A stretch of DNA of 64,000 nucleotides, taken from NCBI GenBank assembly GCA_013265495.1, contig MU058221.1, positions 2,046,001-2,110,000 of the forward strand, written 5' to 3'. The position numbers were made by a program, and so were the translations under genes. This DNA comes from Vicugna vicugna. Its lineage: Eukaryota. Below are positions 33,531 through 61,900 of this stretch, one piece after another (within the stretch, counting starts at the first letter, position 1; each line of letters starts with the position of its first letter). The notes under the pieces were generated by a model that saw nothing but the letters and a program-made list of their open reading frames with translations, made no database searches and was not told where the DNA came from.

Positions 33531-33534
33531 TGTT

Positions 33535-33672
33535 GGCCTCGGGGGTAGAGCGCAGGCTTCGCCTGCCCGAGGTCTTGGGTTCAATCCCCAGCACCTCCAT
33601 CAAGGAAGTGAGTAAATAAAGAAATACACCTAATTCCTCACCCCAGCAAAAAATAAAACAGAACAAACAAAG
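33535..33672 (+). mobile_element. tRNA-derived camelid SINE (Vic-1-like)
   Basis: ggtagagcgcaggcttcgcctgcccgaggtcttgggttcaatccccagcacctcc...cctaattcctcacccc plus A-rich tail. Confidence 0.85.
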
Positions 33673-35194
33673 AATACTGGAATAAAGTATGAAGTTGTTC
33701 TTCCCTCCAGCTCTATAATCCTGCCCATAGCCACTAGCAATGTACTATAATTAAAGAAAAAAAAATTAGTCCCCCAGTCTCGTGGGATTAGTGATAAGGC
33801 GGTATGGCAACAAATGACAGTGTAATTAAACGGTGATACCCTCGGTAAAGGGAGATACGGTACAGGAGAGGCAGCAGAGAACAGTGCAAATGAGGGGAGA
33901 ATTCCCTGGATGGGTAAGAGGCAGGCTAGCTTTGAAAGGGTAGCGTAGACTGAACTTTGCCAAAGGGTATCAGTATATATTCAAGAATTACAAATACTCA
34001 TCACTGCAAGTTTCCATCACTGACATGAGTGATTTGAGTCATCAATGCGATGTACTCAAATTGTTGAATTTTAAAAGAATGTATGAAAAAAGATAATGTT
34101 TAAGAAGTCATAAATTGTGCATAGACAAAAAAAAACCCCTCTAGTTTTGCGATAACGTTCACAAAAGGGGAATATGCTGGTTCTAGAAACGCAGTGTGAG
34201 AAGCCGAAGTAGGGTGCCGAGCAATACTCGAGAACAGATTTTTAAGCAGCAGGTAGGTGAGTCCTTCGAGAAGAAAACACTGGTATCCTGCCAAGGTTTT
34301 TGAAAGGAAGAAACGAACGAGGTCAATTCAGGTTAAAATTAATTCATTTTTAAATTGGACTTTAAAAATATCCCCCCTGAATTATGAGTTCAGTCTATAA
34401 ATACTGGTTAAGAACCTGCTCAGTCTTGGGAACTGTTCTGATGGCTTGGACTCTGTTCATAAACAAAACTGACCAAGACCCCTGCCCTTGAGGGGCTTAC
34501 ACCCCTGCAGTGGTTGGGGGGGGGTCCCCGGGCTCCCAGCTCTGTTAGGAGCCCCTGCTGCCTTTGTCCCTCGTCGCTGCTCAGGGCATCGCACGTGGCC
34601 TGGAGACAAAGGGGGTAGGGAGGCAGAGAATGTTCACATTTCCGGCTCTGTTCACTTAGATTTGTCCCCATCACCATGGACGTGCTCATCAGGCTTCATA
34701 GAAGTGCTGGCTTAACTGAAGAAAATGAAGTAGGATGGGAAGACCATGAAACGATATGACTAATGTCTAAGTCGAGATGAAAAGCTCCCAAGATTTTAAA
34801 CTCTCCCTAGGGGCCCCCCGTCGATTTCTCGACGTCTCCTCGCTCCCCTCCTTGACCCTGCAGGAGGACCAGCGCTGACTCAGACAACCCGTGTGTGAAC
34901 AGAAGAAACTGCCCATTCCCCTGGGTGACCACTGGGGTTTAGGAAGCGGAGTGAGGGCTGGGCTGGACCCTGCTTGCCCCTGCGTCCAGTGCCTGTGTGC
35001 AGGGCACAGCCTGCCCCACCGTTGATGGCAGACTCCCCCTTCCTCCACAAGAGCACGTTTCCAAGTGTGAGCCATGCGGTCGGGCACTGTGCCCCAGGGT
35101 CCCAGCAGAACAGTGCATGATGACCTTTGGCCAGACAGACTCAAAAAGCTGCCCAGGGAAGCTCTGGAGATCTGAAGCATCAGCATGTTCACAG

Positions 35195-35280
35195 AATCAA
35201 CGCCGCTGTACTGTGCCCTTAAAAATGGTTTTAGGTGGTAGATTTTAGGTTATGTGTGTTTTACCACAATTTAAAAAAAC
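35195..35280 (+). mobile_element. L1MB-type extreme 3' end
   Basis: cttaaaaatggtt...ggtagattttaggttatgtgtgttttaccacaatttaaaaaaa. Confidence 0.7.
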
Positions 35281-38200: not shown

Positions 38201-38399
38201 TTGCATTGTTTACCAAGAGTCATTGCTAAACATAGATCGCTTTTCCCCTACTGGCGTCAGTGTGGCCGTTGAGAGCTCAAATGGGAGATGCGTTCTAAAA
38301 AGAGAGAATGAACTGAGGAGAAGGCCACGTTGTTACATTTTATCTACCAGGTTAGAATTTTAATTTTTTACCCATTGTTTGAATGACTGCATGATCCAA

Positions 38400-40450: not shown

Positions 40451-42765
40451 CGTGGTGCTGGGTGAGGTCTGAGACCTCCTCCTGGGGTCTCATACCTCTG
40501 CTTATCCAGGTACCGAGGCAAATCTGACCATCCCATCACTGCAAAGGACTGTCGTCTCTGCTTTTCATCCTTCTTTACTTTTCCTTTTTCAGTTGTCGGT
40601 ATTGTGGAATATAATTACCACACGATGGAATTGTCTGTGTGTGACGGAACGCCTTCCCCCCTTAAAATGCTTTGAAGGCCCTCCTGTTCTTCCCTACGAA
40701 ATCCCTGCCACTCACAGATTCACCACACACCTTTCACGGCCCCTCTTTCCCCGGTGCTGCCTGGGAGGCACCCTCCCAGCCCAGGAGGAAGCAGTAAGAA
40801 CGCAGCGGGTGAATGGCGAGGGGCCACGTCGCTGCTGAGAAAATGCGTGTGAATCGTCTGCTTGGCATTTGTCCACGTGCCGGGCGTCCCGCGGTTTGCG
40901 GGTCTCCGAGTGCAGGGGTGAGATTGTGCGCATCTGGGCTTTAAGTGCATAAACCGTAGAAACTTCAGCCAGCAGTTCGCAGAGGTGTATATATGTACAC
41001 ACACACACACACATTTATGTGTTCTCCCTCGTTTTCATACACACAGCTCAAGAGCATGTGAACAGTGCTCGAAAAGGAGTGGGATTTGTCGTGCAGTCTG
41101 GTGATTTCAGGTTGAACTTTGGGGATGTCCTCAGTGTCTACAGGGAGGGGAGGAAGCAGCGTGAGAAGCAAGCACGCTTTGTCCTTCTCCATCTGAAGTC
41201 TGGTAACGCGAGCTTTATAGTCGGTTGGCTTCAGTGTTTATAGTGCCAACGAGGCCAGTCTTCTCAGATTCGATCCCTAGGCCAGCTAAGTGTATTGATT
41301 TTTCTTAAGAGAGAGTCAGGCAGGAGAAGAAACACTGTGAGAGCAGTAGACTGTGTGGCTTTCTGTCCTTTATATATGGAGCATATTTTATTACTCTTAC
41401 CCCCTGTGCTAATGTTAAAGTACCACGGAAAAAATCAGATTTAACCAATGGTGCCTAGAACAAGAAGGAAAATAGGAAAGACTTGAGACCACATATTATG
41501 TTTTGAACTTGTAATTTTGAGTTCAAAAAAATTTCCTTAGCTATAAAAAGTGAGTGGGTTTTAAATAGTCTAATCAGGCAATCACCTGTTGCTCACCTGC
41601 GTTTACAAAGAGCAAAGGGAGAACCAGAAGTGTTCTGTACGTGTTGCTTAATTAGTCCGATTAAACACCTGCCTGAGATTTCCTGGCTCAGCAGGTCCCC
41701 CTTCTCGGAGTCACTAGTACATGGCTAAAAATACAATTTTTCAAAATGTAAATATTTAATTTTAAAAATTGTTGAATTATTCTCCATACTGTATATGAAA
41801 AAAAGGATATGAATTATGCATTGCTTACAACACAAAAAAATAGACTCTGCAGTTAAGCTCATTTAATGGTGCTATATACAGGAATATTCAGTTCACAAGC
41901 TTATAAAAACATAACGAAAAAAAGTAAGGTGCATATCTAAAGAAAATTATGAGGAATTTCACAAAATACTTGGGTGAAAAACTGGAGTGGGCCCCCAGGG
42001 GGCAGCAGGACCCCCGTAAGCCCCAGAGTGCTTCGGGTGAAGCATCCAAATTATTTTGAAAGATCCCCAAAAAGGAGATTTCTGATACTCCTTTGTTAAC
42101 CCCTCTGAATTTTGGCCTCAGAAAATTCATTGTTAAATTAATATTCTCCCAATCATGTAGTGTATCTCAGTGGATACAGAGAATAGATTTCAGGTATTTA
42201 TGCCCCAAATTTACCATCATGAGCCACCAGTCAAGAACTGAATTTCGTTAACATATGGAACGTAGGAATTTGAAGTCACTTAAGGATAATTTTTAATTTT
42301 GAGCCGAGAAAAAAAAAAGAGACAGATTAATTGTCCTGAGTATTTCACAGGTAGTGAGTGGGTGGGGCTCAGGTTCAAGTGCTCTGGCTCTTCCCTCTCA
42401 CACGTGTGCTCTTTATTGTTCTTGGAACCCCTCCTTTGTTGCACAGCTGAGTGCTTTAAGCTGTCAGATTTAAACTTCACAACATCCCTGTGAGGTATAT
42501 AATATTGCCCTCGTTTTTCAAAAGAGGAAGCCAAGTCTCCGATGCAGTAATTTCTCACCCAGATAAGACCTGGCAGCTCCACAGCCTGCATCCTCTCTAC
42601 TGCCCTGTGCCACTGCCTTTTACTGACGACTTGCTCCGCAGTGTTGCTTCGGTCCCGATTCTCTACACCCATTCTGCAGTTTCAGAAATGCTCATCCACT
42701 TTTTTTTAAAATCCATGGTTTTTATTTTGCCAGTATCTCCACAACATAATTTGTAACTTTTTAAA

Positions 42766-43495
42766 TTTCTATTTTTTAAATTGAAGTATAGTTAGTTGTA
42801 ATATGTCAATTTCTGGTGCACAGCATAATGTCGCAGTCATGCATATATATATACACATATGTTCCTTTTCATAAAAGGTTATTATAAGATGTTGAGTATA
42901 GTTCCCTGTGCTATACAGAATAAATTTGTCTTTTATCTATTTTTATATATAGTGGCTAACATTTGCAAATCTCAAACTCCCAAATTTATCCCTTCCCACC
43001 TCCTTTCCCTAGGTAACCATAAGATTGTTTACTATGTCTGCAAGTCTGTCTGTTTTGTGAATGAGTTCATTAGTGTCCTGTTTTTTTTTTTTCAGATTCC
43101 ACACATGAATGTTATCATATGGTATATTTCTTTCTCTTTCTGCCTTATTTCACTTAGAATGATAATTTCTAGGACCATCCATGTTGCTGCAAATGGCATT
43201 ATTTTACTCTTTTTTATGGCTGAGTAGTATTCCATTTTATAAGTATACCACACTTCTTTACCCAGGCATCTGTCACTGGACATTTAGGTTGCTTCTGTGT
43301 CTTGGCTACTGTAAATAGTGCTGCTGTGAACACTGGGGTGCATATGTCTTTTGAAATCAGACTTCCCTCTGGATATATGCCTAGGAGTGGGATTGCTGGA
43401 TCATATGGTAAGTCTGTTTTTAGTTTTTTAAGGAACTTCCATACTGTTTTCCATAATGGCTGCACCAAACTACATTCCCACCAGCAGTGTAGGAG
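42766..43495 (-). mobile_element. Young 5'-truncated L1 with apparent target-site duplication
   Basis: ORF2 C-terminus ([32 protein letters not shown]...) plus 3'UTR. ACTTTTTAAA flanks both sides (42756-42765 and 43496-43505). Confidence 0.95.
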
Positions 43496-46400
43496 ACTTT
43501 TTAAAGAGAAATGATACTCAGAATTAGAAAACGAGATGCTTCCTTTTTTGGTGAGTTGTCCAATACATGTTCACGAGCAGAGTCTTTTGACAGGGTAATT
43601 ACAATCTGCCCATTTCCCCCTTTACAATCCCCTAGAACCTTGAGCCTTTGAGAAGTGATGCTTAAGGAGTGCAGCTAGACAACACGCCTGTGCACTCAAG
43701 TGCAGGGCTGGCATTCTGTCCGTAACGAGATGACCCTGCAGTGAAATGTCAATGTGGTCTTTATTCAAGCCATTGGCATTTTCCAGACGTTTGGAGCATA
43801 ATGAGAGGATAATAATGTACTCTTACATATCAAGACTCAGGAAATGTCAGTGGATGATATAATTGTCTCTTTGGGGGAAAAAAGAGGGGCCGTTTGGGTA
43901 TGTCATGCGACTGTAGTGAAACTGTGTAGCCACATCCATTTTCTGCCCATAAAGCACAGTTGGTTTTGGTCTTAGAAATTTGTACTGTGTATAAACTGAG
44001 GCAGGTGTGTGTTGAGCATTATCTTAGGGGAAGAAACTGCCAGACAAAGTAACACCTGAAATCTCCGTGCTTGGTGGTGGTACCTGAGTCAGAGAGAGAA
44101 CGGTCTGTTTCCGCATTCAAGCAGACACGTGTGGTGTGTGTAAGGAGCCGGGCGTATCTGGGGGGCATTCACTGTTTAGGGGTCTGTTAAGGAAAGAATA
44201 AGGTGGCGTCGTCCGCCATGATTCATTTGGGTTCCAGAGCAGAGATAATCCACAAAAGAATGAGGTTTTGGTGGGGTTATTCTGCTTGTTGTTTTGGAAG
44301 AAACTTTTTAAATATGGTGGTGGGGAAGCATAGTTTTTTCCCCAAAACTCAGTAGGTTTTATGTTAAATCCCCCTGTGGCTTGCAAGTATCATCCGCTTT
44401 ACGTGAGACGACTAATGTCAGTTCTGTTCCAAGAAGTGCTTATGGCGTCTATGGTTTTCTTTTTGGTGTGAATTCCAGCTATGATTTTTTTGAGTTCACC
44501 AAGAATCTAGAGCTCCTAATTAGTACTTGCAAATGATGGCTTGAAATTTACATCTCAAATATACTAAAGTTAGCAGCATCTGGAATTTGACAGTATTTTA
44601 AAAATATGTGTCATATGAAAAAAACCGTGAAAGTCGAAGTAGCGTGGTAAAAATTGCAGCCTGTATCTTCTTTTCTGTGCGTGTGTGTTGAGTGTGCACT
44701 TGTCCACATGCAAGGGGGGAGGAGGAGGGGGAGGGAAAGTAAGGACACACTTAATGGCTGCTGCAAAATAATGAGAAAACGAACAAATCATTTTTATTTC
44801 ATAAGATAAAGTTTCTATCCCTACCTCCCTGCTGGATTAGAAATTTTGATCAGCTGAATCTTTTAGCTAACCCGGCGCTGATTGGAACATACTTTTTATT
44901 TGTTGTAGTCTCAGATTTGTGTCTCCTCTTTCTTGTAACAGTCTAGTTTTATTTTGTTTCATTTTATTTCAGCCTTCGTAAATCCAAAATAGTGACTCAT
45001 TAACATAGTTTAGTCATTTTTCAATTGTTAGGGACGTTAAAAACAGCATGGGGTTTCCTCAGATGGGCACTGATGGTTAGAACAGTTCAGGGGTTTTAAA
45101 GACAGAAACATTTTCTTACCCACTTAAGTCCCTGCTTCTAAGCCGTTGCTCCTTCAGTGAATTCTGCCGTTGCTTCTGTGTCTTAGTTTTGAGTATCTTT
45201 TCTCATCGCCCTAAGAGTAGACATTGCACGTTGTGCAGATTCTAGGAAAATCTAGTAGGCTTTTAGCAGATCCTGTAAACAAGTTTATTTCTTGGGATTG
45301 TTTGATTTGCCATGTTGTATCAAATCTCAGTTGCCATCAATTATAAGATTGTATTTTAAGTGCCTTTAAGAAAAAATAAACCTCTATCAAATGTATCTTT
45401 TAAGTGACACTGACACGGGTTGTAGGATTCATCCTTATTTTGCATGTGTAGAAGTGTGGGGGAAAAGTAAATCTTAGAATTGACGGAATATATTTTACTG
45501 TCTTCCATAAAAGATTGAGACTTTATTAGATTTTAAGGTGTATAGAGTACTGGAAGGTTAACATACCATAAAGGAAAATGATTTAAAAAAAGTAAAACCA
45601 AGATGAATGTAAGTCTGGATAAGGAGCAAAGACTGAGACTAATTCAATAATAATCATCATCAAATTACATGCTTTGTAATGGGGACCATATACTTGGGTC
45701 AAGCTTTTCTTCATTGAAGTCAGTGTAAAAAATAATAATTAATTTATTACACAATTTAATGCCCATGAAATAAATCAAACCAGGTTCTAAGGAGAAAAAT
45801 AAATAAAGCTCCAATATTCTTGGTACTAAAATCATACAAAAATTTCTCTGTGTTACGTAAAGAAAGGTACCTTAGCTGTAACCGCAGGGCGCACACAGCT
45901 TCCTAAAACCCTTTGTGGGCTGCCTCTCCACCGAGGTCAGTGGTATCACACGAAGGCAGGTGGAGACTTTTCCATCAGTGTCCAGTATAATAACGTGTCT
46001 CTCTTTGCTTGTCTGCTTTACATTAGTGTGGTTGGGGTATTATGATCGGTGGAGAGAGAGTTGGCCTGACCGTCCTTCAAGCAAAAGTAAATGTTGTTTC
46101 TCTCAGATAAGCTTTTGGGTGGCAGTGGATCTAGACCACACTCCCTGGAGGTTACACGAAGCTGAGTCCCTCAGGCTGCTATGTAAAGGTGACACAGCAC
46201 GCCTGAGCAGGGAGTGGAGGGAGTGTGAGTTCAGCATCTTCTAAGGGAAGCAGTTTCTTCTGAAGAAAAAGTGCCTAAAGAGAAGGGCCCCCTGCTGCGC
46301 CTTGGCTTACAGCCACTGGAGAGGTTCTTGCTGGGAAGTCAGGTTGCGTCACTTCTGACCTGCAGGATGGATGGTCCAGTGCCCAGTTGTTCTACTCCGG

Positions 46401-46554
46401 AAATTGCAACCGCAGAAAACTTAGCCAAGAAAAATAAGTAAGTAAATGAATAGATAGGTATACCTGGCTATTGCTCTTGGCCTTAGAAACGCCTCAACAC
46501 CCAGTCATAGCATTTCTGTTGCGGGGTTAATTTCTGAAATTTGCTTTTTGGTAT

Positions 46555-47032
46555 TATGGATCTTCCTTGACTTGCAATGGGGTTGTGTCCCAATAAAGTC
46601 ATCATTTAAGCTGAAAATATTGTAAGGGGCAAATTCGTTTACTATCACTACCCTACTGAACATCATAGCTTAGTGCCGTCTGCCTTAAATGTGCTCCGAG
46701 CAGAGCTTACCGTTGGACAAATTATCTGGCACAAAGCTGTCAAGTGTCGAAGAGCTCATTGAATCCTGTGCTGAAAGTGAAAAACAGGGTGGTTGTGTGG
46801 GTACAGAACGGTGGCAGGGGTCTCTGCCCTCTCCCCTGCGCTCCCGTCGCTGAGCGGAAGCTGTGGCCGCCGCTGCCCGGCATCGTGAGAGAGAGAGCAC
46901 CACACCCTACCCCGTAGCGCTGGCCTGGGAAACGGTCAGAAATCAGAATTCAGAGTGCAGTTTCTGCTGAATGCATATGGCTTTCTCACCACTGTAAAGT
47001 CGGAAAATCAGGTAAGTCGAAGTCTATCTGTA
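46555..47032 (+). mobile_element. Tigger5/MER47B-like DNA transposon fossil
   Basis: cttccttgacttgcaatggggttgtgtcccaataaa; actgaacatcatagcttag; gaatgcatatggctttctcaccactgtaaagtcggaaaatc. Confidence 0.85.
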
Positions 47033-47126
47033 TGTTCTTCAAGATAAAGTATTTGGGAAGCATATACCAAAGCAGCCGAGAGAAGGCTCGCCTTGGACCG
47101 CACGGAGCAGGTCAGGGTGAGTCTGC

Positions 47127-47163
47127 TAATGATAATGATAATAATAATAATAATAACAACAAC
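47127..47163 (+). repeat. (AAT)n/(AAC)n trinucleotide microsatellite
   Basis: taatgataatgataataataataataataacaacaac. Confidence 0.9.
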
Positions 47164-48619
47164 TTAAACGGCATACATCATGTGTAGGCTCTCTTTACAG
47201 CCATATGTAACCAGCACCAGTCCAGCTCTGTTTCAGATTAAATAATAAAACCTTGTCTTCAGAGCTGAGGAATGCCCGCCTGCAGGACTTGGGAGTCAAT
47301 GAACATACATCCTGATCTGCACTGCCAGTGTCAGACACCTGGGAGGAAATTTCAGACAACGAGGATAATTCCGATTTCTGCCTTCTGTAAATTGCCAGGG
47401 CATCATTAAAAGATCGTTTCTTTGTTTTTTGTTTTGTTTTGTTTCTTGATTCTTAGCTTTAAAGCTGTGGAAGGATCAATAACCAGTTCTTGGCGATGTA
47501 CTTCTTTTTGTCTGAAATGGGATGTGGAGCTTTGTCTGGGAAGAAAGACCAGTTCAGTAGGAAACGCTGGCGCCATCGTTTCTGCCACACGGAAGTCTTA
47601 CTTTAGTGACTGTGAGGCCGCGGAAATCTGTGTTTTGGCCTCCTTTCGCTCAGGCACTGGTGTCACCGCGCTGGTCTTTTTTCCTCCAAGTGCACCACAT
47701 GCGTGTGTCTTGGATGTCATGGAAAGCCCGCTCGTGGGTTATCCCACAAGGGGAGCATTCGCCTGCTCCTGTGTTTTGCAAGGAAAAGCACAGGCCGCAT
47801 CTGTGCTGACCGTGTGACTGCTGGGTGAGCAGATCGGGCTGTCGAGGAGCAGTTCAAGGGAGACGTCATGTTGACGCATTGCTTGGCACTTGTTTAACTT
47901 GGCAGTTCTTAATACCTGACTTAAGATTGCTCCTCGAGGCTTCGTGTGATCAAATATATTCCCCTTGGAGCACTTAACTCTTTTCTATCTTAAGTTAGAA
48001 GAGTTTTCCTCTTTAAGGAATTCTTAAATTTATCTGCAGTTGCTCCTGGAATAGAAGAATTTGTTTTTGATCATTTTGTTTTCAAATATTCACCTCACAG
48101 TGCTCTTGATTTTTTTTTTCTTTTTTAAGCTGCAGCAGTAATCAGAGCCCTCTGTTACGTTAGCTGAGTGACTGTGACAAATGAAATGCTTCAGAGCTTT
48201 GCAACAGTGGGATTCACAAAGGCTTACTGCTCACATCTGCCAAGTGCGTGAATCTAGTAAAACAGGGCTAAGATGGTCATTTTTTTTAACTTCTAGCTCT
48301 TGGTTCTCTTTTAGTGGCTTTCTGGGGATCTCAAATAATGGTTCGATTCACAGCAGTCACATCTGTGTACTCTTGCTTCTGCCAGTGCCTTCTGGCTGCC
48401 TGATAGAGGGGGTGCCTTTCGACGACTTGACCGGTGCATCAGCGGGTTGTTTTTCAGGACACGTGATATGTGATGGCACCTGAAGTAAGAGGAAAAGTTT
48501 GCCTTTAGAAAATCACTGCTCTGTCTCTCTCACTTTCTTTTGCTTCAGCTAGACTGCTGTTTCTGAAAGTAAATCCATAAACCGTGTATATCCTAGTTCC
48601 CTGTGATTGGATGTGAGAT

Positions 48620-48870
48620 GCCCTGGCAGAGACCTCCCAGGAGCCCCGCAAGGTCTACCGATCCGCCTGCTGACAGGCATCTTGGTGATTCTGAGATGCG
48701 ATGCTGTCTGATGATCGTGGTCCTAGAATTCGGTGCTTCTCAGATTTTAATGTGCATATGAATTACTTAGGGATCTCGTTAAAATGCAGACTCTCTTTTA
48801 GTAGGTCTGGAGTGGCGCCTGAGAGTCTGCATTTCTGACAAGCCCCAGGTGACAGTGATGTCTGCAGAGC
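48620..48870. mobile_element. MER5A/MER5B hAT-Charlie remnants
   Basis: gtgcttctcagattttaatgtgcatatgaattacttagggatctcgttaaaatgcagactc...gagtctgcatttctgacaagccccaggtga. Confidence 0.8.
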
Positions 48871-51249
48871 CTGCCTTCAGCTGACTGCCCTCTGGGTAGA
48901 GCTTAGACAACTGCCCCGCTGCTGGCTCTGGGCAGATGGGACAGAGTGACCGAGACCAAGGCCTTGGTGCCCTCGCTGTTGCTTGTTGTTTTGGAAGAAG
49001 TCTTCCCTGTCTGTTGAGCGTGTGTGTCTGGAAGCAGAGAACTGATCCAGTGGAAGAGACATGGTCAGATAAATTGTCTTAAAAACACTGTAAGAGAAAG
49101 AAAGGGGTGAAGTGGCGCTGGCTGCTGCATTCCCGACCGCCACCGTGCAGGAACGGGGCTCTGCTCCTAGGACATCAGGCGACGAGTCATCTGCACCGGC
49201 CTGTGTCTCACGGGGTTACACTCAGATCCCGCCATCACCGTGTCTGAGAGCAGCGGTGCCCACCCTCTGGCTGTCACTGAGACGTTCCCATTGGCTGGGG
49301 TCCACTGGGACCCTCATTATGTCCTGGTCCTAGGACCACGGACCACTTACACTCTTATCTGGGAGCTATAGAATTTCTTCTCTTCTTTGATGCGAGGTGG
49401 AGACATTGAGGCAATATTTGAGGTGGGACTAGAGAAAACCAAGCATGCTTTTAAGCTAAGACTGACGGGCCTACAGACAAGGGGCTGTGTTGAAGGTTTA
49501 GAGGGAAATTGGTGCAGCTAATGCCTCTGAATGATGTGGTCAGAAGATCGGGGTGATTTAAAAGGGCGGTGGCAGCAGCATGCCTTTCCTGGTGTAGGAG
49601 CAGGGGAGAAAAACATGGGCACAGAGAGAAGTGAGTTTGATGGTCCTTTTGAAAGCTACCGGAGTTTAGAGAAGGAAGAGATTGTTACTAAGAGAATTAG
49701 CCAGGAGGTGTTTCCCGGAGAAAGGAGAGTTGATGAGACAGAGCAGCATGATAAGATAAAAATGATTTGGCTTTGGGAACTTACCAGTTTCCTTAGAGAT
49801 CAGTTTAAGAAGACTCTGCTCCAGGAGGTGTGGAGATGAGAGCACAATTTCTGAGGAGTGAATGGAAAGAGAAAATGGACACTTTAACACGTGCACTTCT
49901 ATTTAAAAAATTTTTTGGCAGTGACTAGTAAGATCTAAACCCCTCAGCTCGGCTCTCAGAGGCCCCAGAGGCTTTGCTCTGCTGCGTCTGTCCGACCTCG
50001 TCTCCTGCGCCATGTCCGAGTTCACGCTGTTGCTCTTGTCTCTGTGGCTGGAACGTTGTGTTTTCCTCTTTTCTCTGCCGCACAGCAGATGGGCTCGCAG
50101 ATCGTTAGCAAAGGAGAGCGTGTGGGTCTTGAGTGACGCTCGCCTGGGGTGGCATTTGGTGTGGGGACTGGGGAGAGAGCCTGGATAGGGTAAGGGGAGA
50201 CGTACCATTCAACCAGGAGTTTCTACAGAATAACTGCCTTTTGAAAGTTTGCCAGTGAGCTGCCCTAGGCATTTAAAGGCCTGTAAGCACCGTCTCCCCA
50301 GGATGCAGCGTCACCCGGACGCCAGACCTGGACGCGGGCAGCCAGCCTTCGCAGCTCACTGGGGTGTCCCTCTGCTGTTAAGACCGTCCTCTGTGTTCTC
50401 CCTTGCAGTGGTAATTTTCCTCACGCAGCAGTCTCTACCTTGTGTGACGGTTATCTCTGATAGCATGAGTGTGTGGTGATAGGATGTTTACAACTGGATT
50501 TTTCGCCAGGACTGCTGCTCTGTTAGGTTTGTGCTGTTTAAATCTAGTGTTTAGCCACCCGGCTCTTTGCTCCTAGAGTGGTTGTAATAGTTTGTCTTTT
50601 AACTCTTCTGCGTTTTCTTGATGCAGTCACGTTTTCTGCAAGGAATGAAGAATAACTTAGTCTCGACCATTCTAGTGCTTGCACCTCGTCCTTCTCTTTT
50701 CTTATCCAACTTGTTGACTTTGTCCTTCAACGAAACTGACTAGCAATGGGGAGAATGAACAACTATCTCCTTATTCTAAACTGACTAAGGCGTGAGTGTT
50801 AATGGGGCCTCGTAACGTTCCTTCTGTTCTCTCTCACATCGCTTTACGTTCCGCCACACGCGGAGCCGAGAGCTCTTCCTCACGGAGGACTGACTTGATT
50901 TGCTTCGTTTGGAAGTCATCACGTGTTTCTTAGGACCTTCCTGGTCAAGTTCCATCTTTATTTCTTCCCACATAACTGATAGCTTCTTACCGGCTTGTTA
51001 TTATGAGCGTTGCCTGAATTGTGCTCGATAGAGTAACGCGCCGTGAGATAACAGGAAAAATTGAACTTCGTTTGCCTTGACAGCAGACGAACCACGGTGT
51101 GGCCGTTTAGCTCTTTTGGTAGATTCTGCGTCAGCTTCCACTCCCCAGATCGTCAATATGCCGGAAACAAACAGCTCCCCTCCCCATCAATTTTTTTTTT
51201 CTGTTTTGAGAGCACTAAAAAACAAGATCACAGAACTTCTCAGAATTGT

Positions 51250-51540
51250 ACATAAAATGAGAACAAACCAGGTATCAGCGAGAAGAGAAATGCTTCCCGC
51301 GGATGCAGAGCCCAGGGAGAGAGCTGCTGCGCAGGGCGGTGAACACAGGGCCGTCCCGCAGCCTTGTAGTGGGAGGCGGGCGCCGGATATCGGCGCTGCG
51401 GTCCCCTGTCACAACGTGCGCACGTGTCAGAATTGCACTGTACACACCCACGTGTCAGACTGACACGTCCTACACCTTAAGCTCACACAGTGTTAGCTGC
51501 GGAATATATTTGACTGAAAAATCAGTCAGTCAATAAAAAT
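51250..51540 (+). mobile_element. Old L1 3' end, GC-shifted
   Basis: tacaccttaagctcacacagtgttagctgcggaatatatt...aataaaaa terminal motif. Confidence 0.55.
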
Positions 51541-53070
51541 GAGAGATTCTGGAGCTGTTTGCAGTGTTTGAGAAGGGGCTCCAGTGCCTGCTTCCGGGCG
51601 GTGGTTCTTGGCAGGAGTGGGGGCTCCTGGAAGAGAACCGTGCTTCTGTGTTGGGGGACATTCTCCTTGGGGAGAGCACTCCTGTACCCCAGAAAAGCAG
51701 CGTCCGTGAAGCCGGTCTTGCTTCTGATGTTGGCCTCAGGGGGGGGGGGAGCGGAAGAGCCACCCCGTGTCACTGGCCGAGGGCACGTTTACAGCTCACT
51801 GCTGCTTTCTGGCAGTCTCATTCTCAAGGATTTTATCTTTTTTTTTTTTTTGTCTAGCGTTCTTACTTAAATGTCCTTACAGAATCCGTCTTCAATTCAC
51901 TGCATCTAGTTATTTAGCTGTCTAGAGAAACAGGCTGGCACCGCTTGCAACACTGTGCTGACCGTGTCTTAGGTAATGACCCTACTGTGCTCGTCGTCTC
52001 GGCCCACGTTCATTCAAGACGTTCCGTTTTCTGGTGTTCTCTTGCGCCCCGTAAACACACTAGACGTTCATTGTGACTTTAGTCACTTCGCTTGCTCTTG
52101 GATCTGAAGTCAAGAGCAGAAACTACAGCATTTGGAGCTTTGCTGGGGACTGACTTTCTTGGCAACCTCCAAAAAAAGTTTTAATCTGCTCGCCAGGACG
52201 CGTGCCGGTGACAGTGACCGCAGCACCCGTGTTCTTTTCTAGCACACTAGAAAAAACGCAGAGGTGTCGATGGCTCAGTGAACAGAATGTGGAGCCGTGG
52301 CGTTCCCTTCCCTCTCACACTTCTCAGAAAATAAAGGTTCAGAAGTCTGTAGGAGATAAGTTCTTTGTAACGTATTAAAAGCTGTGTTACAAGATTAAGC
52401 AGCTCTAGATACAGAGCAGAAGGAGGTTTGGCAACTGAGATCTGTATTCAAATTATAATACTTAGTCAAGGAGTGATAAAGTCAATCTAATTTTAGTTCT
52501 CGAAGTTTTAGCTGGTTAATGAAATCTGGGTACTGCGTCATTCAGCGCCTTCAAATCAGATTCACCGTTTTGATTTTATAAGATGGAATTCAGAGATAGC
52601 AGAAGTCTTCAGAAGTCCTCGGTGACTGACGCATGAGCAGAGGGCATCGATGGTCCACCATGTGTCGATCCCTCGCTCACCTCCGCCCTGACTCTGAGGC
52701 TCAGGATCGGGTACTGGTTCTCCTCACGCAAGGCTCAGAGGCGGTCCCACGTTGTGTTCTGTTGTATCTCCTCCCTGAGGCTGGCTACCCTGACCAGCAC
52801 TGCACAGTTCAGTCTGCGAAGGCGCAGCCTCCAGTTGGCTGGGAACTTTGAGCTACTGGCACGTCTGGCCTTCGTCCTGATGACCTGAGGTCATCTGCGT
52901 GAGGTGAACAGCTGTTCGTCTGCACAGAGTCTGTGTGCTTCCACGTCTTCCAGAGGATGAGGCTGTGTGATGTGTGTGCGCAATGTCGTGAGCGAAGGCT
53001 GTGTAAAAATGGCGAGATGACAGTGCTGTTTCTTGGCAGTTAATTTCACAGTTGTCCTTTTACCTTTAAG

Positions 53071-53266
53071 GTGACGACCCTTGTCAACACAAGCAACAAA
53101 GGCCCGTCTGGTAAGAAGAAGGGGAGGTCAAAGAAGGCCCACGTGCTGGCCGCGTCTGTGGAGCAGGCCACTCAGAACTTCCTGGAAAAGGGCAAGCAGA
53201 TCGCCAAGGTGAGTCAGGATCTCAAGGAGGAGCTGGTCGCTGCCGTGGAAGACGTGCGCAAGCAAG
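53071..53266 (+). CDS. CTNNA2: Catenin alpha-2 (alpha-N-catenin) internal coding exon, N-terminal dimerisation/beta-catenin-binding region, about aa 35-100
   Basis: Translates VTTLVNTSNKGPSGKKKGRSKKAHVLAASVEQATQNFLEKGKQIAKVSQDLKEELVAAVEDVRKQ(G). TSNKGPSGKKKG, ATQNF and SQDLKEE match CTNNA2 rather than CTNNA1 or CTNNA3. Pyrimidine tract plus acceptor ccttttacctttaag ends at 53070; donor caag|gtgggc starts at 53267. Length 196 nt, phase 0 in and phase 1 out, as I recall for human exon 3. Confidence 0.97.
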
Positions 53267-53764
53267 GTGGGCCGATGGTGCTGCTCTGCGGGGGGAGGCT
53301 GGGGTGGGGGCAGGGGACTCTTCTCCAGGGAAACGAGGCTGCTCAAAGCATTGGCCTTCTTCCTTTTTCCTCTCCGTCTGCACCTGTCGCTTTCCATCTG
53401 GGCTGGAGCTGGGTGCAGCAGACAGGGGGAGATGCCGCTGTATCTAGCACAGCCACGAACACTCCTCATCTGCTGCTGCTTTCTGAGTAGATGAAACCAG
53501 ACACCTGTGTCAAACTCATGCTTTCGGGAGTTTCGTGTGAGAAGACTTTTTACTAGAGTCCCTGGAAGTCCAACATTTTAAGGATGCAGGGAGGAGACAA
53601 ATGTGAAGTAGTGTAATAGCATTATTGCTGCTTTCTGTGATTCCCATGATTTGTATTTTCAGTTCATAGCTTTCCTCAAAAATCCACCCAGCCAGCTAGC
53701 TGTCGGCAGAGCAGTCAATTATACAGCTAGAGAGTTAGCTCTGAGACTGTTTAATTCAGCGTGT

Positions 53765-54772
53765 TTTAAATTTTCAAGTGGTGAAATGCACGTAACATAA
53801 AATGCATCATCTCGCCCATGTTTTAAGCGTACAGCTCGGCGAAGTAAAGTGTGCTCACCTGGTTGAGCGGCCAAGCTCCAGAACGACTGCATCTTGCAAA
53901 ACGGAAATTCTGTGCCTGTTAAACGGCCCCGGTTTCGCCCTCCCCCAGCCCCTGGAGACCACTGCTTGACTTTCTTTTTCTGTGAGTTTCACGACTCCAG
54001 TGCCTCACGTACGTGGAATCATGCAGCGTTTGTCTTCTTGTGACTGGCTTATTTCGCTTAGCGTGATGTCCTCCCGGCTTCTCGTGCTGTGGCACGGGTC
54101 AGAGCACCCTTCCTTCGGGGGCTGAGTAATATTCTGCTGTGTCTTTATGCCACATTTTCCTTATCCTTCCATCCACTGGTGCACGTTGTGCTCCTTTCGC
54201 CTTTTGGCTATTGTGAATGATTCTGGTATGAACGTGGGTGTACAAATGTCTGCGTTCAATCCTTTTGGATTTATATCCAGAAGCGGGACTGCTGGATCAC
54301 ATGGTGGCCCTATTTTTAATTTTCAGAGGAATCTCCATGCTGTTTTCCACGGCAGTTGCCCCATTTCGCACGTCCACAAACAGTGTCCACGGGTTCCAGT
54401 CTCCCGACGTCCTTGGGGGTACCTGTTACTTCCTGGTTCTTTTTATCGCAGTCATCATGATGGGTGTGAGGTTATGTCTCGTTGTGGTTTTGATTTTCAT
54501 TCTCCAGTTGTCAGTTATCCTGAGCCTCGTTTCACGGGCTCCTCGGCCACATCTGTATCTTCTTTGGAGAAACACGTTTTCAAGCCCTTGCCCATTCTTT
54601 GCTCAGGTTGTTTGTCTTTATTGTTCTTGCTGTTGTTGAGCTGTAGGAGTTCTCGGTATTAAAGCCCTTATCAGATACTGTTTTGCAAATATTTTCTCCC
54701 ATTCTGTAGGCTCCTCTTTCACTCTGTTGATTGTGGCCTTCGATACACAGAAGCTTTTAATTTCGATGTGTT
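53765..54772 (-). mobile_element. L1MB-like 3' fragment (ORF2 end plus 3'UTR)
   Basis: IKSFCVSKATINRVKEEPTEWEKIFA on the minus strand; gactggcttatttcgcttagcgtgatgtcctc; ggatttatatccagaagcgggactgctggatcac. Confidence 0.9.
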
Positions 54773-55014
54773 GTTGTTCAGCAGCTTGAGTTGAAAATTC
54801 TAAGACATTACAAAACAAACAAACACCTCCCCCGCAGCCTGGTTTCCCGCCTCTGTTTTCTGAGTGAATGCCCCGCGGACGTGTTCAATTGCATAAATCT
54901 TGGTATCCTTCTTCCTGCTTCCCTCTCCTTCCAGATGCCTTCTGTTACAAAGACAAGTAGGTTTTAACTCCTGAATATCGCTTACATGAACCAGTTTCTG
55001 GTTCAGTTATTCCA

Positions 55015-55350
55015 AAGCACCGTGTTTTACCTGCCCCAGGGCCTTTACACATGCTGTCCCCTCTCACGCAGTTAAGGATGACTCATTCTGCACATCCCAG
55101 CTCAGGAACACCTTCCCGGGGGAAGCTTCCCTGACACTCCTGTCACACTTTCTCACAGATCTTTTCCTTGTGGGAATATTAGTCATTATTAAGGTGACTT
55201 GACTGATAGCTTTTTTCCTCTGCCGCACTAGAAGTTAATGAAGGTGGAGACCACACCGTGGCTCTTTGTGATCATGGGTTTGTAATGCTTAGTACTCGTA
55301 AGGTGTAAATCAGTATTTGTCTAATGAATGAAGAAGTAGATGGATGAATG
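55015..55350 (+). mobile_element. L2 3' fragment
   Basis: cctgccccagggcctttacacatgctgtcccctc...ggaagcttccctgac...tatttgtctaatgaatgaa. Confidence 0.65.
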
Positions 55351-55707
55351 CTTTGTCCCCTTTCTCCTTGCAAACCTGCCACTTTCTAAATTCACAGATG
55401 GCTATTTAGTCCTGGGAGAGACCAGCCACCCATACCAGCAGCCACCCTTCCTCCTGCTGTCTTCTTCTCATTCTCTTCTTCCCTCTAAAAGTTTTTTTTT
55501 TTAACATTACACTGATGTCAATTGTTGCCTTCATTTGAAATGTTAAACCTTACATATTTTACCTCATGTGGATGGAGGGTATTTGTGTGTGTGTTTTAGC
55601 AGCAAGAATGTTTTCAGGTTTCCAAGTTTGAACACTGGTGTTCTTGCTTTCCTGCAGACGGACAGTTGTGTTCATACATCTGTAGCCTGGATACTTTTTC
55701 TCCCCCC

Positions 55708-55830
55708 TTATTTTTATGTTGACGGATAGATAATAAATTTCGTATGTTTAAAGTGTACAATTTGGTAAGTTTTGCCAGGTGTGTCCACCGTGCACCCGTC
55801 ACCGCCGTCGAGATGGTGCACCTCTCCCCC
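55708..55830 (-). mobile_element. Old L1 3' end
   Basis: atgtttaaagtgtacaatttggtaagttttgccaggtgtgtccacc. Confidence 0.65.
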
Positions 55831-57939
55831 GTGTGTGGAGTTTTGATTCACTGGCCCCCAGGCCATTTTCTCGGAGGTTTGTCTGTCATGTTCTTACATT
55901 TTTCCATTTAGTTTCCTCAGCAACCTCTTAGCTCTCCTTTATTTTTCCCTTAGAAGGCAGTTTCCACACCTGCTGTAGAAACTAATATGGTAGATTTCTC
56001 CAGTCTTACATGAAGTGATGCTTTGTGGGCATAATGTAGTGAACAACATAGTTCTTGGCCAGACTGTCCTGGGATTTTAGGGTGAGAGATTTTAAAGATG
56101 CTAATTTAAGCTTCTCGTGGTTATTCTTCTAGAGGACGTTTTAAATTTCCATTTCACTACCCATTTCTTGTTACAGAATAATTATGCGTAAGAAACAGTG
56201 CTTGCGTTTAAAGCCCGACTGCCACGTGTCCCTTCTCCTGAACAGGGTCGAATTCCAGGAAACACTGCTGGACAGCAAAACACAAACTTCACTGGCAAAC
56301 ACCTTTGAAGTTCTCCTTTTGCGCCTCTTGTGTTCAGACGCCCCCGCTGTCCGGTGCACTGCGGGTGTCTGGCCCGCGTGGGGTGCCTGCCTCTCCTCCC
56401 GGCAGCAGGTCCTCAGCTCCTCTGCACGTTCTGTGCCCACAGGCTCTCTTAGCTGCTCGGGTCCCCGACTCAGTTCTGTAGTGTGTGAGCTCCTTGGCCC
56501 GTCTGGCTTTACCCGCATTTTCTGTTTGCCCATTACCCAGATTTTATTCACAGATGCGAGCCTGAGTTGATTTTCAGAGAGAGTTGGGAAGAACAAGAGT
56601 TTGAGGAGAGCAAGTGAGGCTTAGGGCAGAAGTACTGTTACTGAAAATCCAGCCTCTCCAACAGCCAGACTGAGACGCGGCGGCGGAGACTGGGAGCCCG
56701 TCCTGGGGCTGGGGTCTTGAGTCTGATAGAAGAGCTGGGTGGGACAGAAAGGCAACAACAAACAGGGCATTTTTCCAGGGTGCCCTATTCTTCTTAGTCT
56801 TGATGAATCCGCCTGGAGTCACGGGGAGACTCTGGAGGGCCTGGTGATCCTCTGAGGCTGTCGGCCCATGGCCTCCCTCCTGGAGCACAGCTCCTGGGTC
56901 GAGGGATAAGCGATTCTGGGTAAAGAATGTCTGGCGAGTGGGGAGTGTAAGGGCAAGGTTGGGGGCTGTTAAGCACAGAAATAGTGGAGCAGGTGAAGCC
57001 AAGGTGGGGGTTTGTTAGAGAAAAGAGGAAAACAAGTTGCAGGAATTTTAGGTCAGAGTGAATCAGCAAGGAGCTTTAGCATCAGGGAAGCCATCCTGTT
57101 AGTTAGTTTCCCAGTCTTTTCAGTATTTAGTCCTTGGAATTTTAAAACATAGAATCTTTCCTTCCAATATAGCAGTCTACTTCCTAATACGTAAGACGAC
57201 ATTCAGAAGCTGTGAAAACACAGACATTTGGAAAAAAAAAGTCCTCCTTTAAAGTGGCTCTAGCTGTCATCCATGCCTGCTTATTAAATGGCATATGGTT
57301 TAGGAATTACGCCTGTTAAAGATAATCTTTTACTATTGAGTTGTTTTGCCTTTTTTAAAAATCGAATGGTGAAAAGGCTCGCCACACTTGAAGAACATTT
57401 CCAGCACGAGTACATGCCTGAAGCCTGAGGGCTATAAATCTCCATTTTCACATTTTTTAATATAGAACCATTTACTGTTGCTCCTTTGAAGTTTCATAAC
57501 ATTCATGATTATAATTACTGTAATCTGCCAAGATTATATATGAAATTATCTATTTAACTGTGTCATTATTGTATCTCATGGTTAAACTTAGCGTTGTGTG
57601 AATTTATCATTTAAAAAATACATCTTTTAATCCTAGACTGCCAGGATTTTTTAAGTGCTCAGTATGTGTGGTGACAGTATTTTTACCCTACGCTGTTTCA
57701 GCAGGAGAGTTCCCTGTGCTTTTAAGTTATAAACTAAAAAAAAAATAGGCCTGTGACAGCATTTATATTAAAAAAGTAACAAAAGTAAATTACCAAAATA
57801 TATATAAAGAAGAGAAATTGTATTCAAAGCTTAAAACACTGGGGAAGGCTAGTGGAGAAAACAGTCTGGTTTTACAAGGCAAAGCGATGATGACTGGTGA
57901 TTGGGGGGTGGGTCCAGAAGCTCTGAGTTGAGAGGTTTA

Positions 57940-58900
57940 TGTCCAGGCATAGTTAGAAATACGGTAAGGGGACAGAAAGGGACCACAGTGGGGAAAGTTC
58001 AGGAACTGGGTTTCATGTACACAACGTAATGAAGGAGAGACAGGAAAAAAAATGCTTTGGTTTCTACCCATTTAAGTGATGTTTTAGAAAGATTCTTTTG
58101 GCAACTTCATGCAGCGTTGACTAAATCAGAGCAAGACTAGACTCAGATTGCTTAGGTGTTATTGTAACATGGCAGAGAAAACAAAACAAGAAAGAAACGC
58201 TTTGAGAGTCTGGGATTGGAGTCATGGTCCTGGGAATAAAAATTAAAAAGTAGATGTTACAGACATTGCCAAAAAAGAATGAAAGAGTCACCACTTGTTG
58301 AAGGGAAGAGACAAAACTCTATATTTATTCTCTGTTTTTGGCCCTAGGCAACTTGATTCGGACAGCTTAAGGGCTGACGGGTGGGGGAGAGGATCTCTTG
58401 GATTTCAAACATTGATGGAGAAGGGGACCCTGCCTATCACGTGGTTAATGCTACGGAAATGGAACTTTGGGGCAACAAAAATGTGCAAGTTTTTGGAGCT
58501 GATGGATAAAGCTTTCAGAACTAGAACTTTCTTTGATTACTTGCCAATTGGTAAAGAAGAGAAGAGGTTTTGTTCTGAAAGAAAGGCTGAATTAGGATTA
58601 GAAATTGGAATAGAAATGAGTCTGAGAGGGAAGCCTTGCCTTGAAATGGGACCAGAGAGCAAAGCTAATGCAGAATCCTGAAATCCAAGAGAACAGGATA
58701 TTCTGCAAGAAAGACAGTGATCAGTCCAGTCTCTTGAATGTTGTTGCAATCATGTCAAACACTTCTGAGATTGTGGAGGATGAAGAATGAGAGAACTCCC
58801 TGGATTTGCCAGAAAGGTGTCATTAATTATATTTAAAGTACGTTTTCAGGAAGCTGCAAGGATGATCGTTAAATAAAAAAGATGCTGAAAGAAGAGAGTA
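57940..58900. mobile_element. L2 remnants
   Basis: gttttagaaagattcttttggc, gcaagactagactcag, gatgaagaatgagagaactccctggatttgcc. Confidence 0.5.
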
Positions 58901-61900
58901 GATGGTGACATAAAGGATGTAGGCAGGAAAGCTACCCACCCCCTTTTTTGGTCCTCACTGCAGCATATGCTGCACATACTTCGTTTTGCTCCTGAAGATA
59001 GTCTGGGACTCAAACGTGGGGCCCTGTGTTATTATTTTGTGTTATGTCTGGAGCCTGGGACAGTGCCTTGGCCATGTGAGCACTTAATGCACGATTCAGA
59101 AGACTGTCACAGAAGGGAAGGGGAGAAATAGAGGAGTAATTGGAGAAAACGTTAAGGGCAAGCAAAAAATATAATTACTTGACTGCTTGCGTGCTTATTT
59201 TGTTCCGCGCAAGTCAGAAGTTTCAGAACATACGTTGAGAGAGGGAGCCACTGGTGAGACCCATTGTGGACATGAAGGGGCAAGACGCAGGTTGGTCGCA
59301 GGAGGTGACACAGATGGGACATTTCTCTACCTAGAAAGCTGGTGGGGGAGAGGGACACAGCCGGCAGTGGTTTTACAGAAAACCCGAGCACGGAAGCAGA
59401 GTGGACGAAATGATCTCAATTGTTTTGAATAAGAAAGGGGGCAGTTTTAACGGACCGTGGAGATCTGATGTGAGACCACTGTTGTGGACTTGTGCATGTT
59501 TTTGCCTGTTGCTGGCATCTGCGTGGATAGCATATGTTTCAAAGGATTTTATTTCTTGAACACTCGTCCCTTGGATGCAGCTAAAATGGCCAATTTGTAA
59601 CAGGCTTAACTGTCCGAGAACTTTTCATGTGATGTGTTTATTTGGAGTGTGACAGCGTCCGCTAGCGACGGGAGGCTCACCCAGCGTCTGCGCATCGTCT
59701 CAGATTTGAAATAGGTCCGGAAGCCGTCCTTTGAAAGGAAGGCGCTGCCTTTCGTGTTTGCTCAGTCAGGGGACCCGTTCACTGGTGGGACGCAGCCCTG
59801 GTTCCCGTGCTGCTCCGCAGGCCTTGGGGCCGTTGCCTGGGTTTCCTGTCTTCAGGCAACAGCCCACTCTGTCTGGGGCATGACCCATCGGAACAGGTAA
59901 GACCTGGCCCGGCCGAGAAGCCGTGCCAGGCGAGGGTGTGGACAGAAACGTGCATGGCCTTAACCCAGGTCTAAGAGGGGGTCACAGAGCAAAATGACCA
60001 GAGGTACAGACGAAAGAAGTGGCTTCTTCATGGAGCTATTTCCTGAATCAAAGAGCTGCTCTAAGCTTTCACTGCTCATCTAGGATTGTCTTTGTTTTCA
60101 TACAGCGTCAGATGTGGAGTGACACGCTGATGCCAGCTGTCCCATCGCTGTTACTTTCTCACCCAGTCAGTATTTACCGAGTCGCTGATGACCACTGGGT
60201 AGAGACAGACAAGCCTGAGGCAGAGCTGTAGACGGAGGGAGAAAGGTGGCCTCACGTCTCTGAGGTGACTGGGTGGCCTGGCGGCTTTCTCCTTCCCCAC
60301 CCACTCTGGGGTTGGGATGCGGTGCTGGTGGAGTGCGTTATCCAGCAGAAACCCCAGGGGCTGTCAACTGCGTGACACCCCAACTGAGAGCTGGTGCAGG
60401 CCGTCCGTGGACGAGAAGCTCCTGATGCTAAGTGGCCCTGCCTGTCCTCCTCCCGCCGCCCTCTGATATGGAAAGCAGCGCAGTGGGGGAGGAAGGACGG
60501 CTGTGTCCTCTTTCTTGCCCCACTTTCCAGAGTCAGTCTCTCTAAGGAGGAGAAGCAGCGGGGGTGCTTTTGCAAGGATTCTAGAGTCCCCCACTTGTCC
60601 TCTTTCTCAGGGTCCTTTGCTGTGGGACCCTGCTCTTTGCATCCTGAATCCTCGTGTCTCCTAGAGCTACTGAGCTTCCTTGTCTGCGCTGGGCTGCTGG
60701 CTGGCTGGCTGGTTACCCTTAGGTAGGTGGCACTTCCTGTGTTGGGACGTGCGATCCTGTTGTCGTTGGCTCAGATTTCACTCCTGTGTGGTGGGAGGGC
60801 TAGGGGCGCAGCTTCAGAGGAGAAGCGAATTCCAGGACAGAAAAATGGGGATTTGAGAGGGAAGACTCGGTAAGAAAGAGGACTCACCTCTCTCTGCCCG
60901 TCTTACTTCTTCCAGCCTGGACTCGGCTGCTTACTTCACTAAATAATAGTACCCGAGTAATACTGTTAATAGAGTGCATGTTTATTACATCAAGGAGGGG
61001 CAGACCTTGACGTTGGTCCGGGGGGCATGTCTTCAGTCTCGGGGTGCAGCGGGGCAGGGGTCTGGGGACGGTCCCTATGTCCACGCGCTGCTGTTCACTG
61101 TCCTTCCCCGGGCGCCTCCTCCTCTCCTTATAGAGGCGTCTTTCACAGGCAGTTCTCAGAGTGAAGTTCACAGACCACCTGGCTCAGAATCCCCCGGGTG
61201 AGGATGGGAGAGGTCCATAAAGACTCTTGTCCTTGGGTCTAGCCACAAACCTAGATTCAGGGTGGCTGGAGTGACCACCGGGAAGCTGTATTTCCAGGTA
61301 GCACTGCAAGTGAATCTTATGCTTCCAAAACTTGAGAATTGCTAATAGCCCAAGCTTATTACGTCTTTAGACACACCATCTTTAATCACTTTAAGTCTTT
61401 TTTCCATTGAAAATCATGCCATCCAGGAATGACATAAAGTTTCTGAAATTTTGATATCGGAAGTTTAAAGAATACTAAAAAACCTGGCGGTACAGACAAT
61501 GACAAAAATGATTAAAATGAAGAAAAAAACACGTAAGCGTGAAAACGCATACATCTTACGATTCATCTTGTGCAGATTTTAACGTTTGCAGTAGTTTTAC
61601 CTGTTGCATATTTTGTTGAATAAAACACACCTCTGTGCAGCAGTTTGCACCAGGCGAGGGACCAGAAGCATCTCACGTCAGCCTGGAGCCCTGTCTATGG
61701 CCCTTGTTACAACATCCTGGGAGACAGTGGGAGACAGTTCTTCCGTCTCACCCCTCTTTCTGGAGCCCGTGGATTCTGAAAATGCCGTAATCTTTCAGCA
61801 AGAATAACAAACAAACAGCAGGTTCCATTTATCGGTTGTTGCTCCATTTGTAATACACCTCGTGTATATTCTCTCAGCGTCGTTCTGTTGGCCATCCAAG

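What the first reader, a model, noticed from the sequence alone, without database searches (positions are those of the whole stretch)
53206..53214. Perfect cryptic 5' splice site AAG|GTGAGT inside the CTNNA2 exon, created by an apparent E81V change
Seen: codons read GCC AAG GTG AGT CAG (A-K-V-S-Q). This is an exact match to the MAG|GTRAGT donor consensus, 58 nt upstream of the native donor, which is the poorer AAG|GTGGGC. Recalled knowledge: alpha-N- and alpha-E-catenin both read IAKESQ here, so a single GAG>GTG change explains both the valine and the donor. Inference: use of this donor gives a 138-nt phase-0 exon instead of a 196-nt phase-1 exon. That shifts the frame and probably triggers NMD in a gene whose biallelic loss causes pachygyria in humans. 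It could be a deleterious allele, a regulated poison isoform, a decaying duplicate, or an assembly error.
Basis: partly seen in the sequence, partly recalled or inferred. Interest (0 to 1): 0.75.

Follow-up and report, generated by a model that had tools for sequence, protein, structure and literature searches.

The report
Pseudogene bases pasted into CTNNA2 exon
The perfect hidden splice site is in the assembled sequence, but it sits in a short stretch copied letter for letter from a broken partial duplicate of the gene; the annotated alpaca and camel proteins lack the change, so it is most likely an assembly mix-up and not a damaged brain-development gene.

Summary
AAG|GTGAGT is at 53206-53214, 58 nt before the native donor of the second coding exon of CTNNA2. 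Neither occurs in 320 of 320 homologues covering both sites. The assembly also holds a partial CTNNA2 duplicate, about 7% diverged and flanked by multi-copy sequence (C5264/C7925). It carries both changes, and window and duplicate are identical over 53137-53268. That tract is one of 12 perfect tracts of 111 nt or more in 15.7 kb (0.6 of 100 nt or more expected), with no excess of eroded tracts. RefSeq alpaca CTNNA2 matches this gene at 758 of 760 residues compared, differing only at these two; two camel proteins also read E76/E81. Where the duplicate's two contigs overlap, one equals the window and the other does not. Best reading: pseudogene bases were written into the real gene during assembly (0.8). 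A true gene-conversion null allele remains possible (about 0.1), because no reads were examined. The scan noted similar partial duplicates elsewhere in this genome.

The parts
53071..53266 (+). Second coding exon of the working CTNNA2 gene (aa 35-99 plus one base), 196 nt, phase 1
   Evidence: other exons in order on C1658
53206..53214 (+). Cryptic donor AAG|GTGAGT; T at 53210 gives V81 where homologues have E (or D)
   Evidence: same letters in the duplicate C5264
53194..53196 (+).
53137..53268 (+). 132-nt tract identical to the duplicate; holds both changes; most likely duplicate-derived bases
   Evidence: P(no difference in 130 coding nt) about 8e-4 at the 9/168 rate of the other coding stretches
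53264..53272 (+). Native donor AAG|GTGGGC; the duplicate has AAG|GTAGGC. The Bactrian camel read-through tail GGPMV agrees with the window's form
44954..60702 (+). Part of the locus duplicated on contig C5264 (minus strand), 91-92% identical; the duplicate ends at 60702, inside the following intron
44954..45310 (+). 357-nt perfect tract at the tip of C5264; the overlapping end of C7925 differs from it at 9 bases and 1 gap in 279
47974..58726 (+). Span of the ten other perfect tracts, starting at 47974 (198 nt), 50098 (137), 50335 (129), 50562 (120), 51766 (138), 52670 (138), 54992 (164), 55335 (125), 55900 (111), 58508 (219)
14146..45231 (+). Upstream intron, partly duplicated on contig C7925 (matches seen at 14146-19986, 27595-30000 and 42825-45231; 91-95%). 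C7925 also holds a copy of the first coding exon

Best explanation
A segmental duplication, roughly as old as the split from camels, copied the first two coding exons of CTNNA2 and their introns into a block of duplicated sequence. That copy drifted neutrally and acquired E76K and E81V; the second change made a consensus donor by chance, with no downstream CTNNA2 exon to splice to. During assembly or consensus calling, short stretches of about 110-220 nt were exchanged between the two copies, so the working gene in this assembly shows the pseudogene's bases over 53137-53268. The real CTNNA2 allele would read E76/E81 and have no cryptic donor. SHOWN: the duplicate, the shared tract, the tract statistics, E76/E81 in other camelid records, and the disagreement between overlapping contigs. 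INFERRED: that the exchange is technical, its direction at this tract, the age of the duplication, and which software step caused it.
For: (1) The duplicate carries both changes and the donor; the 132 nt around them are identical, while the exon's first 66 nt differ by 4 events. (2) 12 perfect tracts of 111 nt or more cover 13.5% of 14,586 matched bases, against 0.6 of 100 nt or more expected; none falls at 70-109 nt. Two more, 130 and 154 nt, lie near the first coding exon. (3) No excess of near-perfect tracts: observed 1, 1, 1, 3, 7, 5 against shuffle means 1.7, 0.7, 2.7, 3.0, 6.2, 5.7, so there is no older layer of eroded conversions. (4) RefSeq Vicugna pacos XP_072807663.1, on an 18.1-Mb sequence whereas C1658 is 5.97 Mb, equals this gene at 758 of 760 residues compared, including two camelid-type residues; the two differences are E76K and E81V. 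(5) C. bactrianus P0252 and C. ferus P0079 have E76/E81. (6) C7925 and C5264 overlap by 279 nt and disagree at 9 bases and 1 gap exactly where C5264 is identical to the window. (7) Direction: two amino-acid changes in 43 codons have probability 0.106 at the duplicate's rate and 0.006 at the working gene's rate. (8) Human non-allelic conversion slows as copies diverge, and its rate was estimated only for ds below 5% (10.1101/135152, passages); these copies differ at 7.3% of sites.
Against: No sequencing reads were examined, so a real allele in the sequenced animal is not excluded. The tract lengths are also typical of gene conversion (mean 250 bp). One tract of 132 nt or more somewhere in the alignment arises in 4.6% of 2000 shuffles; the case rests on there being twelve. 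Runs of 50-69 nt are mildly over-represented (27 against about 13), and tracts of 74, 75 and 92 nt occur in the C7925 alignments, so divergence is uneven and the lower length limit is not absolute. C7925 and C5264 could be two different copies, which would weaken point 6; there the flow looks main-to-duplicate, the opposite direction. The species of G000 was not fixed below family level, and the RefSeq protein may come from another animal or species.
Confidence: 0.8

Rival explanations
1. Real, very recent non-allelic gene conversion copied 60-130 nt of the pseudogene into one working CTNNA2 allele. The allele would carry two missense changes and a donor that shifts the frame (98-aa product, predicted NMD): a recessive null or hypomorphic allele, like pseudogene-derived CYP21A2 alleles.
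For: Tract sizes fit conversion. The cryptic donor pairs better with U1 than the native donor. No reads were seen that exclude it.
Against: 14 perfect tracts with no eroded ones would need a burst of conversions on one haplotype between copies 7% apart on separate contigs. The overlapping contigs of the duplicate disagree at one such tract. RefSeq alpaca has E76/E81.
Confidence: 0.11
2. E76K and E81V are private mutations of the working gene in this animal or species, and it was the duplicate's contig that was overwritten with main-gene bases.
For: At the tip of C5264 the flow appears to run from main gene to duplicate. The species of G000 was not fixed.
Against: It needs two radical changes 16 nt apart at sites that are acidic in 320/320 and 319/320 homologues, in a gene otherwise identical to RefSeq alpaca over 758 residues; 0.006 against 0.106.
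Confidence: 0.05
3. A lineage-fixed alternative donor that makes a regulated poison (AS-NMD) isoform of CTNNA2.
For: The frame shift and a stop 110 nt before the next junction would suit NMD; the native donor is the weaker one.
Against: Absent from alpaca RefSeq, both camel records and all 320 homologues. It would cost two conserved acidic residues in every normally spliced product.
Confidence: 0.02

Closest known systems
Paralogue-chimeric consensus in draft assemblies of segmental duplications (general knowledge; the two literature searches were read as listings only)
   Same: Short perfect tracts shared between otherwise diverged copies; a contig break at one of them; overlapping contigs that disagree; conflict with another assembly's annotation.
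   Different: Not confirmed against reads; the software step responsible is unknown.
Duplicated (unprocessed) partial pseudogene in a segmental duplication
   Same: Keeps introns, holds only the first two coding exons, drifts (4 nonsynonymous to 1 synonymous codon changes in the first coding exon, one codon deleted in the second), and both flanks are multi-copy.
   Different: No stop or frameshift within the two exons; transcription not tested.
Non-allelic gene conversion from a pseudogene into its parent, as in CYP21A1P to CYP21A2 (PMC3843699, start of abstract in the listing; parameters from 10.1101/135152, passages)
   Same: Pseudogene-derived bases in the working gene, a tract of 100-250 nt, a potential splice lesion.
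   Different: Copies are 7% apart and on separate contigs, there is no layer of older tracts, and the allele was found in no other camelid record examined.
CTNNA2 / alpha-N-catenin; biallelic loss causes CDCBM9 with pachygyria (PMC7596222, passages citing Schaffer et al. 2018)
   Same: The window is this gene: 758 of 760 residues equal to alpaca RefSeq.
   Different: Nothing here shows that a living animal carries a null allele.

Membership tests
Exonic variant creating a cryptic 5' splice site (loss-of-function allele) | Site matches the donor consensus and rivals the native donor | tested here: met
   Exact MAG|GTRAGT; U1 duplex -10.7 against -8.8 kcal/mol
Exonic variant creating a cryptic 5' splice site (loss-of-function allele) | The variant exists in the working gene of a real animal | tested here: inconclusive
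   Absent from alpaca RefSeq and two camel records; lies in a duplicate-identical tract; no reads examined
Exonic variant creating a cryptic 5' splice site (loss-of-function allele) | The donor is used in transcripts | not tested
   No RNA reads were laid on the exon
Exonic variant creating a cryptic 5' splice site (loss-of-function allele) | Use gives a stop more than 50-55 nt before a downstream junction (rule recalled) | tested here: met
   Stop at codon 19 of the next exon, 110 nt before its end
Regulated poison (AS-NMD) isoform | Alternative site conserved or fixed in the lineage | tested here: not met
   0 of 320 homologues, alpaca and camels included
Non-allelic gene conversion | Tract of about a hundred to a few hundred bases identical to a paralogue | tested here: met
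   132 nt
Non-allelic gene conversion | Ongoing process leaves tracts of mixed age, some eroded | tested here: not met
   No excess of tracts with 1-5 internal differences
Non-allelic gene conversion | Converted haplotype present on single molecules | not tested
   No reads examined
Paralogue-chimeric assembly consensus | Conflicts with a separately assembled record of the gene only at paralogue-type sites | tested here: met
   2 of 760 residues differ, both paralogue-type
Paralogue-chimeric assembly consensus | Internal inconsistency of the assembly at a shared tract | tested here: met
   C7925 against C5264, 9 mismatches and 1 gap in 279 nt; seen at one tract only, not at the exon tract
Paralogue-chimeric assembly consensus | Source reads lack the chimeric haplotype | not tested
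   No reads examined
Duplicated partial pseudogene (the C5264/C7925 copy) | Intron-containing, truncated copy while the parent is intact | tested here: met
Duplicated partial pseudogene (the C5264/C7925 copy) | Coding sequence drifts without purifying selection | tested here: met
   4 nonsynonymous to 1 synonymous in 34 codons; one codon deleted and one lysine changed to glutamate in the next 22; small numbers
Duplicated partial pseudogene (the C5264/C7925 copy) | Stop or frameshift in the retained exons, or no transcription | tested here: inconclusive
   Both exons are open; expression not tested

The most novel reading that the evidence does not exclude
The tract is real: a pseudogene 7% diverged and on another contig recently converted about 130 nt of CTNNA2, giving a South American camelid a recessive allele with two missense changes and a frame-shifting cryptic donor. 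That would be a candidate for congenital brain malformation in these animals, and the dozen perfect tracts would mark an unexpected burst of conversion between old duplicates.
Probability: 0.1. Interest if true: 0.6.

Novelty: not a real feature. Interest (0 to 1): 0.1.

Why it matters
On the best reading it is a caution and not a discovery. This assembly's CTNNA2 carries two false missense changes and a false splice lesion, and about 13% of a 15.7-kb stretch is not locus-specific. Other striking single-base findings in duplicated parts of this genome should be checked against their paralogues first. The partial CTNNA2 duplicate is a real but ordinary by-product; the one search for it in print (CTNNA2 + camel + duplication, 2 unrelated papers in the listing) found no description. 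If the allele were real, it would be a testable livestock disease allele and a case of conversion at high divergence.

Tried and rejected
Raw reads: no reads or run contigs were laid on the exon, so the base at 53210 in the source animal is unverified. Run search: 14 DNA-type or untyped runs hold 0.73-0.86 of 70 sampled words and none holds all. This cannot separate the hypotheses, because words inside the tract would come from the duplicate anyway. Search for gene calls from public camelid runs that read through the exon into the intron: none with this intron tail among the 120 of 213 hits listed. One search aligned the duplicate on the wrong strand; redone. One search did not return the window's own place or C7925 among its 38 scored candidates, so absence from such searches shows nothing, and further unassembled copies of the duplicate are not excluded. 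'The window is itself the pseudogene' was rejected: 13 exon stretches on C1658 are open and match RefSeq. Left out of that comparison: the 39-aa alternative exon stretch L027 (absent from P0287), the tandem exon copy L010a, and exons not fetched (760 of 944 residues compared). 53 of 373 proteins held did not match the pattern covering residues 76-81 and were left out of the 320. Dating used one 42-codon intronic stretch of C. ferus P0079 (7 differences from the window, 5 from the duplicate) and is rough. Literature searches on polishing artefacts and camelid duplications were seen as listings only and gave nothing specific. No supplements were read.

Full report
Observation. The window reads GCC AAG GTG AGT CAG, with AAG|GTGAGT at 53206-53214 inside the second coding exon of CTNNA2 (53071-53266); the native donor AAG|GTGGGC is 58 nt downstream. 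The exon matches alpha-N-catenin chains in the PDB, which read IAKESQ. The motif is not enriched: 3 matches in the window against 3.16 in shuffles. Against the U1 5' end (motif recalled) the cryptic site pairs at -10.7 kcal/mol and the native at -8.8. If used, the 138-nt phase-0 exon would meet a stop at codon 19 of the next exon, 110 nt before its end, giving 98 residues.

A second change. The exon also has E76K, 16 nt upstream. Of 373 proteins held, 320 cover both sites: all are D or E at 76, 319 are D or E at 81 (one salmonid has N), and none has K76 or V81.

A second copy. The genome holds this exon twice. Contig C1658, the window's own, carries the CTNNA2 coding exons in order. Contig C5264 holds a copy aligning to window 44954-60702 at 91-92%. 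Contig C7925 continues it upstream and includes the first coding exon. Both outer flanks match many other contigs, so the copy sits in segmentally duplicated sequence. It drifts like a pseudogene: 4 nonsynonymous and 1 synonymous codon changes in the first coding exon, and a deleted codon plus three substitutions in the first 66 nt of the second. It carries K76, V81 and the cryptic donor, and is identical to the window from 53137 to 53268. At the 9/168 rate of the other coding stretches, 130 coding bases without a difference have probability about 8e-4.

The tract is one of many. Over 14,586 matched bases the copies differ by 1,144 events (7.3% per site), yet 12 tracts of 111-357 nt are perfect, against 0.6 of 100 nt or more expected. 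Eight are 111-138 nt, none lies at 70-109 nt, and together they cover 13.5% of the alignment. Two more (130 and 154 nt) occur near the first coding exon. Tracts with one to five internal differences are no commoner than in shuffles, so all tracts are either brand new or technical. Against this: a single tract of 132 nt or more appears in 4.6% of shuffles, runs of 50-69 nt are about twice the expectation, and tracts of 74, 75 and 92 nt occur in the C7925 alignments.

Internal contradiction. The 357-nt tract lies at the tip of C5264. The end of C7925 overlaps that tip by 279 nt and differs from it at 9 bases and 1 gap. The assembly thus holds two versions of the duplicate there, one of them identical to the main gene. 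This shows mixing of copies if the two contigs are one duplicate; it is weaker if they are two.

Other camelids. A search with a later exon that carries a camelid-type residue returned RefSeq Vicugna pacos CTNNA2, XP_072807663.1, on an 18.1-Mb sequence (C1658 is 5.97 Mb). It equals this genome's gene at 758 of 760 residues compared; the differences are E76K and E81V. A Bactrian camel fragment with main-type first exon and main-type read-through tail (P0252) and a wild camel model (P0079) also read E76/E81. Two amino-acid changes in the tract's 43 codons have probability 0.106 at the duplicate's rate and 0.006 at the main gene's rate, so the bases most likely came from the duplicate.

Mechanism. 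Most likely (0.8) the pseudogene acquired both changes by drift, the donor being a chance by-product, and assembly or consensus calling wrote its bases into the working gene. Real conversion (0.11) fits the tract length, since human non-allelic tracts average 250 bp, but that process slows as copies diverge and was estimated only below 5% divergence (10.1101/135152, passages); it would also leave eroded tracts. Private mutation of the main gene (0.05) and a fixed poison isoform (0.02) fit worse. No reads were examined, so the animal's true base at 53210 remains open; that is the main gap.

Comparison and verdict. CTNNA2 loss is tied to recessive pachygyria in people (PMC7596222, passages), which is why the site looked important. 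As a property of the working gene the cryptic donor is probably not real. The partial duplicate is real and of an ordinary kind; earlier unchecked notes of this scan describe similar partial duplicates of ANO6, CEP162 and KIF21A in the same genome. One search for a published camelid CTNNA2 duplication found none. Exon numbering and the NMD distance rule are recalled. Interest 0.1.

Noticed in passing
L010:1305-1696 and 1760-2151 (G000:C1658, about 2,798,130-2,798,980): A later CTNNA2 exon (AIMAQ...DFTR) stands twice in tandem: 392 nt, 99.5% identical, 455 nt apart, each copy ending in a different GT donor. RefSeq alpaca has the segment once. Either a recent tandem copy, a mutually exclusive pair, or another assembly fault.
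   Followed up: partly
G000:C5264 and G000:C7925 (L002, L034-L036, L038, L039): Partial CTNNA2 duplicate with the first two coding exons still open from the ATG. Several kb of the intron copy appear deleted (no match for window 19987-27594). Whether it is transcribed or spliced to neighbouring duplicated exons was not tested.
   Followed up: partly
P0079, P0252: Both Camelus records have S43 where the window, alpaca RefSeq and 119 of 120 homologues have N.
   Followed up: no
L007, L024, L027: Camelid-type residues in other CTNNA2 exons: L for M at 292 and S for N in the EALSAS stretch (both shared with alpaca RefSeq), and two changes in the alternative C-terminal exon.
   Followed up: partly
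window 27857-27865 and 47009-47017: Two further exact MAG|GTRAGT matches on the + strand inside the intron, at chance frequency.
   Followed up: no
G000:C11790:19824352-19824981: An alpha-catenin-like match at 41-44% identity with many stops, probably an old processed pseudogene.
   Followed up: no
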